Positions 18,001 through 21,000 of a DNA stretch of 64,000 bases are shown here, piece after piece. A program made the position numbers. Each line of letters starts with the position of its first letter. Position 1 is the stretch's first letter. The stretch lies in NCBI RefSeq assembly GCF_057098645.1, contig NZ_CM169472.1; one strand, given 5' to 3'.

Positions 18001-21000
18001 GTTGCAAAAAATACAGGTTCTAATCCTGGACGATCTGGGGCTGGAACAGTTAAGTAACGCCCAGTGTAATGACCTTCTGGAGCTCATAGAGGATCGTTAC
18101 GGACAAAGCAGCACGATAGTGGTAAGCCAGTTCCCGGTAGATAAATGGCATGGTCTGATGGAGAACCCAACAACAGCAGATGCCATCCTGGACAGACTGG
18201 TACATAACTCACACCGAGTGGTCCTTCAGGGAGAGTCACTGAGGAAAAATCCCCCGGTAGTGGAAAGCAGCGAAAAAACGCGTTAAAAAGCGGTAGAAAA
18301 AGTTAAGTTCCCGGTTGATCGAATGGATGCGAATCGCTGATCGGACTTCGATGCCAATCCGTGATCGAATAGAGCGGAATACGCACATGCGGGAAGCACG
18401 CTGGATCTCCGACTGGAATGACTGTGAATTTGCCGAAATTTTGATAATCAGTTCACGTAACGTCGCCATTAACCTTTCTCCGGGCGCAAAAAAACCGCCT
18501 CAGCGATTCTCATCATTTATGACTGTGCTGCAAGGCTCAGCGCGTCTTCCAGCGCCGCAAACGGATCCACCTCCGGCTTGTCCTCATCCTCTCCCCAGCA
18601 GAGCATGGCGTCCTTCAGTGCAACATTCACCCCCTGCGCCCCGAAAACCGCTTTCACGATCTGCGCATTACGGATATCCCCGCGCTCATCACCCAGCGGG
18701 GATATCCTGTCGAACTCCATCCACATCATCGCCTCGCTCGCACTCAGGCTGTGCCGCAGTTCGGATAAGGTGCGCCCCAGACGGAGCGCAAGTCGCATCA
18801 GAAAGCGAATTTCCGGGCGGGCTACTTTTTTCTGGCCGACTCTGCATCAGCGATCAGGTCCAGTGCCTGACGCAGCAAGCGGGCATGTACCGGACCATAG
18901 ACGGCCAGCACCTGCTCACGGTCGTCCGGAGTGAACACCCGCTGCAGGTCCGTATCACACAGAACATCGCAGAACAGCGTCACATCCGCTTCCAGATTAC
19001 GGCGAGTTTTCGCCACCACCGACAGGGTCTCGTCACCCGCATCACCGCCATCCAGCACTTCCCGCCACAGATACCAGGCCTCTGCCGAAGGCTCCCGCAG
19101 CACCACGCTGACATTTCCCCATTCCGGCACCTTCACCGTTTTATGACGGAACCCCGACAGCCTGGCCAGTGCCAGTGTTTTCAGATCTTTTGCCATAAGC
19201 CTTATCCGCCCGCACCATTAACCGTTACCGTACACGCGTCAGAGGTAATGCTCTGCGGCTGTTCTGCAGAATCCATTACCATGCAGGTATAAGCCCCCTT
19301 ATCACCTGACTGCGCATTGGCTTTACTGAAAGTGTCAGTAGTCTGTCCCTCGACCGGCTGACCATCCTTCTTCCAGGCGTATTTATAAGGCGGCGTTCCC
19401 CCGTTGACACTGACTGACATTGTCAGCAGCGCACCTGTATTCACGGTAAGTGTCTTCTCCGGATTTTTCATAAACGCCAGCGGTACCACATAAGAAACAG
19501 GCTTACCTTTCAGTCGCAGTGAGAACGTTGCAGCCACCACGCCGTTGGTACCGGATGACCAGGTGTGCTGACGCACTTCCGCCAGGAACTTAAAGCCCTT
19601 ACCGGACGGAAACTGCACCTTAAACGCATACACCGTGTCATTATCATAGGCATCACGCAGGGCATTCTGAGCCTGATTAAGATAAAAGTTGCCCGACATG
19701 GAAATCTCGGACGATGCGCCCAGACCGTTGATATTCTCCTGCTCTGTGGAGCAGAGCGTGGTCACATCAATATCCTGTTTCTGCCCGGCGGTGAACTGGA
19801 CCTCCTTGATGGTGCAGTCCAGACGCAGATATTCCGCCTTCTCCATGGTTTCAGCAGTCGCCGGGGCAGATGAAATCATCACCTGCGTCAGCTGTGAACG
19901 TTCATACAAAGCAGACATTCTGCCTCCTGATAATAAAAAACCCGCACGCGGCGGGTTATGGGTTCTGTTGAAAAAATTACACCGTGACCTGAAATTCCAG
20001 GGTTGCACGGTAACAGCGGTTTTCCGGAATATAGCTCTGCATTTCACTGACGGATCCCGGGGCCAGCAGCATTATGGCTTCACGGGCGTCCTGACGTATC
20101 TGACGCGCCTGCGTCACAGTCCCGGCATAAACGTCTATCTGCACCGACACTGAGGACTCCGCCTGCCCGCCCATCACGTCCGCCGACACCGATGAAATCA
20201 GGCTGAAAACCACCCACGGAAGCGCCACCGACGGCCTGCCATCCAGCAGGGGGACCACATACGGGTACACCTGCCCGCCGGCAAGATGTGCCAGATGAGG
20301 ATACAAATCCGCCTCCGTCATCGTCTCAGTACCTCATCAATGGCCCGGTTCATCCGAGCAATCGCCACCTGTGCCGCCTGTTCACTGCGCACATCAAATG
20401 CCGGGCGCACAAACGGGTGCGGTGGCATATTCACGGTCCCCATTTCCACAAACCGCCAGTAGAAAGCATTGCGCGGGTTATCCGCCTTCATGGTGTTATC
20501 GCTGTTACCGGTGTCCGGATTAACACCCCGGATATGCACACCGGATTCCATCCCGCCATCGCGGGAGCACCGGGAAAGGACCACCACATTGCGGCGCAGT
20601 TTTCCCCTGCGTACCGGTGCCCGTGACACCACTTCTTCTTTCAGCACATTCGCACCCGCACGGGTTGCCTCACGCAGCACCCGGTTATTTTCCGCACCAC
20701 TCAGAAGCTGCAAATCGCGGCTGATGTCCTCCAGCCCCGAAAAATCCAGCAGGGTTTCGATCATTTTTCCCCTCCCAGCCGACAGAGAATTTCCAGACGC
20801 CCGCCGGTCGCATCCGGCACGGGCAGCCCGACAACGTTCAGGATCCGGTCACGCCATGGACCACTCAGCACATGAAGTCGTGACGCTGCCGTGATTTCCC
20901 GGCCGGACTGACCGCGCACCCAGATGCGGATTTCCGCCTGCGCCATTTCCGCACCGGACTGCATCCGCTCCCGGCTGCTCCTGCCACGGATATCCGCATG

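What the first reader, a model, noticed from the sequence alone, without database searches (positions are those of the whole stretch)
18822..18840. A_AAA_AAG slippery site for the G/T tail-chaperone frameshift
G ends ...GCC AGA AAA AAG TAG; a -1 slip on A_AAA_AAG enters the T frame, which is open upstream of its first ATG. This is the conserved programmed frameshift of long-tailed phages.
Basis: partly seen in the sequence, partly recalled or inferred. Interest (0 to 1): 0.3.

Follow-up and report, generated by a model that had tools for sequence, protein, structure and literature searches.

The report
Known phage tail-chaperone G/GT frameshift site
This is the well-known programmed -1 ribosomal frameshift that lets a lambdoid/HK97-like E. 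coli prophage make a short tail-assembly chaperone (G) and a rarer extended form (G-T) from one mRNA; this exact sequence has already been measured at about 7% frameshifting, so it is real but ordinary.

Summary
A 124-aa ORF (19196→18822) ends GCC AGA AAA AAG TAG. The heptamer A_AAA_AAG is 18831→18825. The -1 frame is open from 18846 to 18517.

The upstream ORF is an HK97 gp13-type tail assembly chaperone (PF06222, E=2e-58). The -1 extension is a lambda T-type domain (PF06223, E=2e-19). Both lie between the major tail gene and the tape-measure gene. HK97 gp13/gp14 (60% identical) is annotated as a -1 frameshift pair.

All 80 closest IMG/VR relatives keep A_AAA_AAG+TAG. More distant relatives have G_GGA_AAG or other A_AAG-containing sites at the homologous position.

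The T-frame peptide is conserved upstream of its ATG, and that ATG lacks a Shine-Dalgarno sequence.

Decisively, a 75-nt cassette identical to window 18851→18777 gave 7% ± 0.79 frameshifting in an E. coli reporter (Antonov et al. 2013, PMC3711429).

Side observations:
- The tape-measure gene of this prophage is split by an IS21-family element.
- A hairpin-forming stretch 35 nt downstream of the slip site shows unexplained synonymous-site constraint across the family.

The parts
18822..19196 (-). Gene G: tail assembly chaperone, 124 aa, the 0-frame product.
   Evidence: ORF. PF06222 Phage_TAC_1 E=2.1e-58 over the full length. phrog_344 'tail assembly chaperone' E=1e-44. PDB 2OB9 'Tail assembly chaperone' E=1.3e-45. 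Annotated 'phage tail assembly chaperone' in E. coli O145 RM9872 at 99.8% nt identity.
18825..18831 (-). Slippery heptamer A_AAA_AAG. Tandem tRNA-Lys slip from AAA-AAG to AAA-AAA.
   Evidence: Direct reading. In the X_XXY_YYZ register of G. Invariant in 80/80 IMG/VR relatives across 9 sequence contexts. Lies inside the cassette measured at 7%.
18822..18824 (-). 0-frame stop codon TAG of G, immediately 3' of the heptamer. In the -1 frame it is read through as GTA GCC (Val-Ala).
   Evidence: An adjacent stop also occurs in the Evi, Vibrio Pm34, Klebsiella and Halomonas homologues.
18517..18846 (-). The -1 frame open window. The GT-specific part is decoded from 18825 to the stop at 18517 (102 aa, T domain).
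   Evidence: PF06223 Phage_tail_T E=1.9e-19. phrog_337 E=8.5e-42. phrog_14766, a 224-position fused G-T profile, matches G at positions 1-122 and T at 125-224.
18796..18798 (-). First ATG in the T frame. PGAP uses it as the start of a separate 'tail assembly protein T' CDS. It is most likely an internal Met codon of the fusion.
   Evidence: Weak anti-SD pairing upstream: -3.5 kcal/mol, against -5.8 for G and -6.6 for the tape-measure gene. T-frame conservation starts upstream of it. The Met is replaced in Burkholderia KS9 and lambda.
18777..18851 (-). 75-nt stretch identical to the tested frameshift cassette 'Phage_TAC fs-id 15618692'.
   Evidence: Exact string match to Supplementary Table S2 of PMC3711429: 7% ± 0.79.
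18772..18789 (-). GCGCUCC-GUCU-GGGGCGC. A potential 7-bp hairpin within the T codons Ala-Leu-Arg-Leu-Gly-Arg, 35 nt 3' of the heptamer. It shows excess synonymous constraint and its role is unknown.
   Evidence: See the full report and Noticed in passing.
19202..19918 (-). Major tail subunit gene with a C-terminal Ig-like domain, immediately upstream of G (context).
   Evidence: phrog_158 E=2e-117; Ig_2/Ig_3 and tail-tube Pfam matches. PGAP coordinates mapped from L001.
18383..18469 (-). 5' fragment of the tape-measure gene (about the first 27 codons), immediately downstream of T (context).
   Evidence: Alignment to the intact gene in RM9872.
12583..15746 (-). Remainder of the tape-measure gene after the IS insertion (context).
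   Evidence: PF06120 HK97-type tape measure E=1e-90; phrog_339. Junctions.

Best explanation
This is the programmed -1 ribosomal frameshift of the G/GT tail-assembly-chaperone pair of an HK97-like/lambdoid E. coli prophage.

Most ribosomes translate G (124 aa) and terminate at the TAG next to the slip site. A minority slip while the single E. coli tRNA-Lys species occupies the P site (AAA) and the A site (AAG) of A_AAA_AAG. Both tRNAs re-pair one base back on AAA-AAA. Translation then continues in the -1 frame through GTA GCC..., giving a 226-aa G-T fusion.

Shown here: the anatomy, the homology of both halves, conservation of the site, and identity to a cassette that gave about 7% fusion product in E. 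coli.

Inferred from the lambda system (review PMC5009743): G and the G part of GT coat the tape-measure protein, the T part recruits the major tail protein, the roughly fixed G:GT ratio set by the shift efficiency is needed for correct tail assembly, and neither protein ends up in the virion.

No dnaX-type stimulators are present. The intrinsic shiftiness of A_AAA_AAG with E. coli tRNA-Lys, possibly helped by the adjacent stop codon, is enough for a few-percent shift.
For: Anatomy:
- The heptamer is in register, the -1 frame is open, and the genes lie between the major tail and tape-measure genes.

Homology:
- G is PF06222, E=2e-58, and matches PDB 2OB9 at E=1e-45.
- T is PF06223, the same family as lambda T.
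- A fused G-T PHROG profile matches both halves colinearly.

Precedent in homologues:
- HK97 gp13/gp14 is annotated as a -1 frameshift, joined CDS.
- Burkholderia KS9 gp11/gp12 is annotated as a joined CDS.

Conservation:
- 80/80 IMG/VR relatives keep A_AAA_AAG+TAG while flanking codons vary.
- Among 12 diverse loci the homologous position carries A_AAA_AAG, G_GGA_AAG, A_AAA_AAA/C or at least A_AAG.
- Vibrio phage Pm34, at 48% aa identity, has the identical AAAAAAGTAGCC.

T is not an independent gene:
- There is no SD before its ATG.
- The conserved peptide (R/K)FLMxLALRxGR begins before the ATG, and the Met is absent in KS9 and lambda.

Experiment in the literature:
- The identical 75-nt cassette gave 7% ± 0.79 GST-MBP fusion in E. 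coli. A sister cassette with G_GGA_AAG gave 6% ± 0.61 (PMC3711429).

Background:
- A_AAA_AAG is among the most shift-prone heptamers in E. coli. The lambda G:GT ratio of about 30:1 is essential (PMC5009743; PMC3296357).
Against: - No direct evidence exists for the fusion protein from this prophage in its native context.
- The reporter assay cannot separate ribosomal from transcriptional slippage.
- RefSeq/PGAP annotates G and T as two separate CDSs with no slippage join.
- In this particular copy the tape-measure gene is split by an IS element, so the frameshift product may have no functional partner here.
- No significant stimulatory RNA structure lies at the canonical 5-9 nt spacing.
Confidence: 0.93

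Rival explanations
1. T is made as a separate protein by initiation or termination-reinitiation at ATG 18798, 24 nt after the G stop, as the PGAP annotation implies. The slippery heptamer would then be incidental.
For: PGAP and the Sakai genome annotation list T as its own CDS. The ATG is conserved in 58/59 family representatives. It lies close enough to the G stop for coupling.
Against: - There is no SD-like sequence: -3.5 kcal/mol, against -5.8 and -6.6 for the neighbouring genes.
- The T-frame peptide is conserved upstream of the ATG, and the Met is missing in KS9 and lambda.
- A fused profile (phrog_14766) and joined CDSs exist for homologues.
- A GST-insert-MBP fusion was observed from this exact cassette.
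- A stable hairpin begins 10 nt after the ATG, which would disfavour initiation.
Confidence: 0.05
2. The frame change happens at transcription. RNA polymerase stutters on the A6 run and inserts one extra A, giving an mRNA that encodes the same ...RKKVA... fusion.
For: The protein product would be identical, so the reporter data do not exclude it. Poly-A runs can support transcriptional realignment (PMC3711429). The Evi-type relatives carry A8.
Against: - The run here is only six A residues. The paper cites runs longer than 7 for transcriptional realignment.
- Homologues with G_GGA_AAG or GCA_AAG, which have no homopolymer run, sit at the same position. The G_GGA_AAG cassette shifts equally well at 6%.
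- What the family conserves is the codon register X_XXY_YYZ / A_AAG, which matters for ribosomes and not for RNA polymerase.
Confidence: 0.04
3. In this particular prophage the signal is a fossil. The site can still shift ribosomes, but the tail module is dead because the tape-measure gene is interrupted, so G-T has no role here unless another prophage complements it.
For: An IS21-family element (15747-18382, with an 8-bp target duplication) splits the tape-measure gene after about codon 27. An IS2 copy is also in the window.
Against: - G and T are intact and 99.8% identical to a copy with an intact tape-measure gene, so the insertion is recent.
- E. coli genomes carry up to 7 copies of this module, which allows complementation or recombination.
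- This reading concerns biological relevance, not the mechanism, and is compatible with the best explanation.
Confidence: 0.5

Closest known systems
Phage HK97 gp13/gp14 (tail assembly chaperone and its -1 frameshift extension; gp13 structure PDB 2OB9)
   Same: - Both halves belong to the same Pfam families, PF06222 and PF06223.
- About 60% aa identity over the whole fusion.
- Same position between the major tail gene and an HK97-type tape-measure gene.
- The shift site sits at the homologous alignment column, and the T extension is the same length.
   Different: - The HK97 site reads CGG GAA AAG, so it has the A_AAG core but a non-canonical P-site codon.
- The HK97 0-frame stop lies 18 nt further on. 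Here the site is the canonical A_AAA_AAG abutting TAG.
Phage lambda G/GT frameshift (Levin et al. 1993; Xu, Hendrix & Duda 2004, 2013, 2014)
   Same: - Same genome position.
- Same -1 direction.
- Same logic of a short abundant product and a rare extended product.
- The T domain is in the same Pfam family, PF06223.
- The A-site codon AAG is decoded by tRNA-Lys.
   Different: - Lambda uses G_GGA_AAG.
- Lambda G is a different family (PF06894) with only E=6.5 and E=25 chance BLASTP matches to this G.
- The lambda stop is 5 codons after the site.
- The reported lambda efficiency is about 4%, against 7% for this cassette.
E. coli dnaX gamma/tau frameshift cassette
   Same: Identical heptamer A_AAA_AAG, and the same tandem tRNA-Lys slippage in the same host.
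   Different: - dnaX has an upstream SD-like stimulator and a stem-loop at close spacing, and reaches about 50%.
- Here there is no upstream SD-like element (-3.0 kcal/mol).
- Only a weak hairpin lies 5 nt downstream (-7.3 kcal/mol, z=0.37).
- In dnaX the shifted product is the shorter one. Here it is the longer one.
IS3-family orfA/orfB frameshift (the IS2 copy in this same window, slip site 2865→2859)
   Same: Same heptamer, same -1 direction, and a fusion of two overlapping ORFs.
   Different: The proteins are unrelated (a transposase). PGAP annotates the IS2 shift as a 'programmed frameshift' joined CDS, but leaves G and T as two CDSs.

Membership tests
G/GT-type tail assembly chaperone frameshift of long-tailed phages (Xu, Hendrix & Duda 2004) | Two overlapping ORFs located between the major tail protein gene and the tape-measure gene. 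| tested here: met
   Major tail gene 19918→19202, G 19196→18822, T to 18517, tape-measure start 18469.
G/GT-type tail assembly chaperone frameshift of long-tailed phages (Xu, Hendrix & Duda 2004) | The downstream ORF is in the -1 frame, open across the end of the upstream ORF. | tested here: met
   The -1 frame is open 18846→18517, with a 25-nt overlap.
G/GT-type tail assembly chaperone frameshift of long-tailed phages (Xu, Hendrix & Duda 2004) | A slippery sequence in the X_XXY_YYZ register within the overlap, conserved among relatives. | tested here: met
   A_AAA_AAG at 18831→18825. 80/80 close relatives keep it, and diverse relatives have an equivalent site at the same column.
G/GT-type tail assembly chaperone frameshift of long-tailed phages (Xu, Hendrix & Duda 2004) | The downstream ORF lacks its own translation start signals. 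| tested here: met
   No SD. Conservation extends upstream of the ATG, and the Met is not universal. The ATG is nevertheless conserved in 58/59 enteric-type relatives, so low-level internal initiation is not excluded.
G/GT-type tail assembly chaperone frameshift of long-tailed phages (Xu, Hendrix & Duda 2004) | The frameshifted fusion product is actually made. | not testable with these tools
   Not testable here for the native protein. Published reporter data for a cassette verified here as identical give 7% ± 0.79 in E. coli (PMC3711429).
Pfam PF06222 Phage_TAC_1 (HK97 gp13-type chaperone) | Full-length match above the gathering threshold. | tested here: met
   196 bits against a cut-off of 25, residues 1-124 on profile 1-124. 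HK97 gp13 itself scores 203 bits.
Pfam PF06223 Phage_tail_T (lambda T-type domain) | Match above the gathering threshold in the -1 frame extension. | tested here: met
   70.3 bits against a cut-off of 25.9. Lambda T scores 54.1 bits.
Pfam PF06894 Phage_TAC_2 (lambda G-type chaperone) | Sequence membership of the G half. | tested here: not met
   The window G matches only PF06222. BLASTP against lambda G gives only E=6.5 and E=25 chance matches. Lambda G matches PF06894.
dnaX-type stimulated frameshift cassette | An SD-like element about 10 nt upstream and a stable stem-loop 5-9 nt downstream. | tested here: not met
   Upstream anti-SD duplex is only -3.0 kcal/mol. The 40-nt downstream fold is -7.3 kcal/mol, z=0.37, and the 161-nt fold has z=0.12.

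The most novel reading that the evidence does not exclude
The 18-nt segment GCGCUCC-GUCU-GGGGCGC (18789→18772) lies 35 nt 3' of the slip site and 10 nt 3' of the conserved in-frame AUG. It may be a selected RNA hairpin that tunes G-T expression. It could do so by occluding internal initiation at that AUG so that free T is not made, or by pacing ribosomes just past the shift site.

The evidence does not exclude this. The stem codons are nearly fixed at synonymous sites across 59 family representatives, while the loop and flanking codons vary freely. Observed stability far exceeds that of synonymous recodings.

However, there is no covariation, and the element is absent from more distant homologues. 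I found no description of it in Rfam or in the paper searches I ran.
Probability: 0.2. Interest if true: 0.35.

Novelty: already known. Interest (0 to 1): 0.1.

Why it matters
The G:GT ratio set by this shift is essential for building tails of the correct length in lambda-like phages. The site therefore marks a functional tail-assembly module, here in a Shiga-toxin-phage-like E. coli prophage family present in about 23% of complete E. coli genomes.

In practice it is an annotation point. Standard pipelines still list G and T as two genes, although the fusion is the biologically relevant product and this very cassette was shown to shift at 7%. It adds nothing new to the understanding of recoding.

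Tried and rejected
- **dnaX-like stimulators.** The upstream SD-like pairing and the downstream structure at canonical spacing are both weak or non-significant.
- **Rfam scan of 18300-19400 at E≤10.** Nothing reached a gathering score.
- **BLASTP of the window G and T against lambda G and T.** No alignment was found for T and only E=6.5 and E=25 chance matches for G. The link to lambda T comes only through the Pfam profile and the multiple alignment.
- **Covariation support for the downstream hairpin.** There were 0 compensatory changes, the shuffle control was equal to the observed value, and the RNAalifold consensus was weak. The hairpin is not claimed as established.
- **ORF 38027-38545 (-).** It has in-frame A_AAA_AAC and T_TTT_TTG heptamers and a 79-codon -1 extension. 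It looks like a hydrophobic protein followed by an ordinary ATGA-overlapped small ORF, so it was rejected as a frameshift candidate.
- **The portal / repeat-ORF junction.** PGAP calls it 'frameshifted' in RM9872. It is an ATGA start/stop overlap with no slippery heptamer and was not pursued.
- **Search for a complete E. coli genome with the same IS insertion.** None was found among the best hits, and the best coverage was 86%.

Full report
**Observation**

The finding lies on the minus strand. [quoted passage not shown]

- The heptamer A_AAA_AAG occupies 18831→18825 in the X_XXY_YYZ register of this ORF.
- The TAG stop (18824→18822) follows directly.
- The frame one base upstream (-1) is open from 18846, just after a TGA, to a TAA at 18519→18517.
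- The first ATG in that frame is at 18798, so 16 codons are open upstream of it.
- A tandem -1 slip (AAA-AAG to AAA-AAA) continues with GTA GCC CGC..., giving ...AESARKK|VARPEIRFLMRLALRLGRT..., 226 aa in all.

The bare heptamer is not rare: 19 copies in the window against 12.5 ± 3.2 in shuffles. Only about six in-frame positions exist within the 25-nt overlap, giving p of about 1e-3. Among 151 mechanical ORFs of at least 80 aa, only this one and an IS2 transposase combine an in-frame slippery heptamer near the end with a -1 frame open for more than 100 codons past the stop.

**What the genes are**

- The upstream ORF is a full-length PF06222 Phage_TAC_1 protein (E=2e-58) and matches phrog_344 'tail assembly chaperone'.
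- It matches the solved 'Tail assembly chaperone' 2OB9 at E=1e-45.
- The -1 extension matches PF06223 'Minor tail protein T' (E=2e-19), the family that also contains lambda T, and phrog_337.
- One PHROG profile of 224 positions (phrog_14766) matches G at positions 1-122 and the extension at 125-224. Fused G-T proteins are therefore already in the databases.
- Upstream lies the major tail subunit gene with an Ig-like C-terminus. Downstream lies an HK97-type tape-measure gene.
- The window is an E. coli lambdoid/Stx-phage-like prophage. It is 99.8% identical over this region to E. coli O145 RM9872. The module occurs in 1245 of 5426 complete E. coli genomes, with up to 7 copies per genome.

**Comparison with relatives**

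- HK97 gp13/gp14 (about 60% identical) is annotated as a joined CDS 'translated due to a -1 frameshift'.
- Burkholderia phage KS9 gp11/gp12 is also annotated as a joined CDS.
- In an alignment of ten diverse G proteins, the Lys-Lys encoded by the shift site falls in one column.
- The sites at that column are:
  - A_AAA_AAG+TAG in the window clade, Evi-like phages and Vibrio phage Pm34;
  - G_GGA_AAG in mEp390;
  - A_AAA_AAG 30 nt before the stop in Bordetella and Burkholderia PR1;
  - A_AAA_AAA in KS9;
  - A_AAA_AAC in Halomonas;
  - non-canonical GAA_AAG in HK97 and GCA_AAG in Klebsiella.
- The common core is A_AAG.
- All 80 best IMG/VR relatives (67-100% aa identity, nine distinct local contexts) keep A_AAA_AAG+TAG while the preceding codons vary.
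- The T-frame peptide (R/K)FLMxLALR(L/M)GRTLxEL is conserved from before the ATG, and the Met is replaced in KS9 and lambda.
- The ATG has no Shine-Dalgarno sequence: -3.5 kcal/mol, against -5.8 for G and -6.6 for the tape-measure gene.

T is therefore an extension of G and not a gene of its own.

**Experimental status**

Antonov et al. 2013 (PMC3711429) cloned candidate frameshift cassettes between GST and MBP in E. coli. Their 'Phage_TAC' cluster (41 genes, HK97-like) gave 7% ± 0.79 and 6% ± 0.61.

- The first cassette, as printed in their Table S2, is 75 nt identical to window 18851→18777.
- The second carries G_GGA_AAG, the same heptamer type as mEp390.

The site has thus been predicted, classified and measured already.

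**Mechanism**

The background below comes from the review PMC5009743 and from PMC3296357.

- E. coli has a single tRNA-Lys (mnm5s2UUU) that pairs better with AAA than with AAG. This makes A_AAG, and especially A_AAA_AAG, highly shift-prone.
- In lambda, G and the G part of GT bind the tape-measure protein. The T part binds the major tail protein. A ratio of about 30:1 is required for assembly. Neither protein is in the virion.

By homology the same is inferred here.

No dnaX-type stimulators were found. There is no upstream SD-like element. Only a weak hairpin lies 5 nt downstream (-7.3 kcal/mol, z=0.37). The 161-nt region around the site does not fold better than shuffles (z=0.12). The adjacent stop codon recurs in 5 of 11 lineages and may contribute, but this was not tested.

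**Rivals**

- *Independent initiation of T.* This is disfavoured by the missing SD, by conservation upstream of the ATG, and by the reporter fusion.
- *Transcriptional slippage on A6.* It would give the same protein and the reporter does not exclude it. However, homologues without any homopolymer run occupy the same position and shift equally well.
- *A fossil signal.* In this copy the tape-measure gene is split by an IS21-family element (15747-18382, with an 8-bp target duplication at 15739-15746 and 18383-18390). The signal may be biologically idle here. This does not affect what it is.

**Side observation**

A scan of IMG/VR used a pattern that allows every synonymous codon of the T motif L-A-L-R-x-G-R-T-x-x-E-L. 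Together with the loci fetched earlier it gave 125 distinct segments and 59 representatives below 97% nt identity.

- The codons that can form a 7-bp hairpin, GCGCUCC-N4-GGGGCGC (window 18789→18772, 35 nt after the heptamer), are nearly fixed:
  - GCG 55/59;
  - CTC 51/59;
  - GGG 47/59;
  - CGC/CGT 54/59;
  - synonymous pairwise difference 0.13-0.40.
- The loop Arg codon (0.74), the flanking codons, and the other highly conserved 4- and 6-fold degenerate columns compared downstream in T (0.55-0.80) vary freely (Mann-Whitney p=0.001).
- The 24-nt segment folds at -14.3 kcal/mol in the window, against -5.3 for synonymous recodings (0 of 300 as stable). The family mean is -11.1 against -5.6.

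Arguments against a structural role:
- there are no compensatory changes;
- the RNAalifold consensus is weak;
- the element is absent from Burkholderia, Bordetella, Halomonas and lambda homologues;
- the spacing is far too long for a classical stimulator.

It is recorded as unexplained.

**Verdict**

The feature is already known and has been measured experimentally, so interest is low.

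Noticed in passing
window 15747-18382 (+), with direct repeats at 15739-15746 and 18383-18390: An IS21-family element (istA/istB, ISSso4-like by PGAP naming of near-identical copies) is inserted about 80 nt into the tape-measure gene, directly downstream of G-T, with an 8-bp target-site duplication. 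The otherwise 98% identical RM9872 prophage has the gene intact. No complete E. coli genome among the best hits carried this insertion.
   Followed up: yes
window 18772-18789 (-); family alignment A3 columns 46-63: The hairpin-forming codons GCGCUCC-GUCU-GGGGCGC in T, 35 nt 3' of the slip site and 10 nt 3' of the conserved AUG, show strong synonymous-site constraint across 59 family representatives. Their stability far exceeds that of synonymous recodings. There is no covariation, no Rfam match, and no conservation in distant homologues. The function is unknown.
   Followed up: partly
window 1954-3227 (-), slip site 2859-2865: An IS2 (IS3-family) copy has its own in-frame A_AAA_AAG between orfA and orfB, with a -1 frame open for 287 codons past the orfA stop. 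PGAP annotates the equivalent CDS elsewhere as a joined 'programmed frameshift', but does not do so for the G-T pair with the same heptamer.
   Followed up: yes
L003-L012, L093 and alignment A3: The slip site is diverse across the G-T family at one homologous position: A_AAA_AAG, G_GGA_AAG, A_AAA_AAA/C, GAA_AAG and GCA_AAG. The core A_AAG is invariant. In 5 of 11 lineages the 0-frame stop directly abuts the site, which hints at a stop-codon contribution.
   Followed up: partly
window 21451-24029 (-); L001 1222-3806: The portal gene (454 aa) is followed, through an ATGA overlap, by a 405-aa ORF. That ORF contains 3-4 tandem repeats of about 54 aa (…VPADGKSITPDDVRPMLEQMVKEAVSHIPVPRDGRDYDPEVL…). 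PGAP calls the pair a single 'frameshifted' portal pseudogene in RM9872. No slippery heptamer lies at the junction.
   Followed up: partly
window 18488-18555 (-): A weak sub-threshold Rfam match to isrK, an Hfq-binding sRNA (20.7 bits against a gathering score of 50, E=0.06). It covers the 3' end of T and the T/tape-measure intergenic region, which contains a T-run after a short GC stem.
   Followed up: no
window 37788-38545 (-): A 172-aa hydrophobic ORF has in-frame A_AAA_AAC and T_TTT_TTG near its end, followed by an 80-aa ORF in the -1 frame. It looks like an ordinary ATGA-overlapped gene pair and not a recoding site.
   Followed up: partly
window 24241-26178 (-): A 645-aa ORF upstream of the portal gene is annotated 'phage major capsid protein' in RM9872. 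It is unusually long and precedes the portal gene, which is an atypical head-gene order. I did not test its domain content.
   Followed up: no
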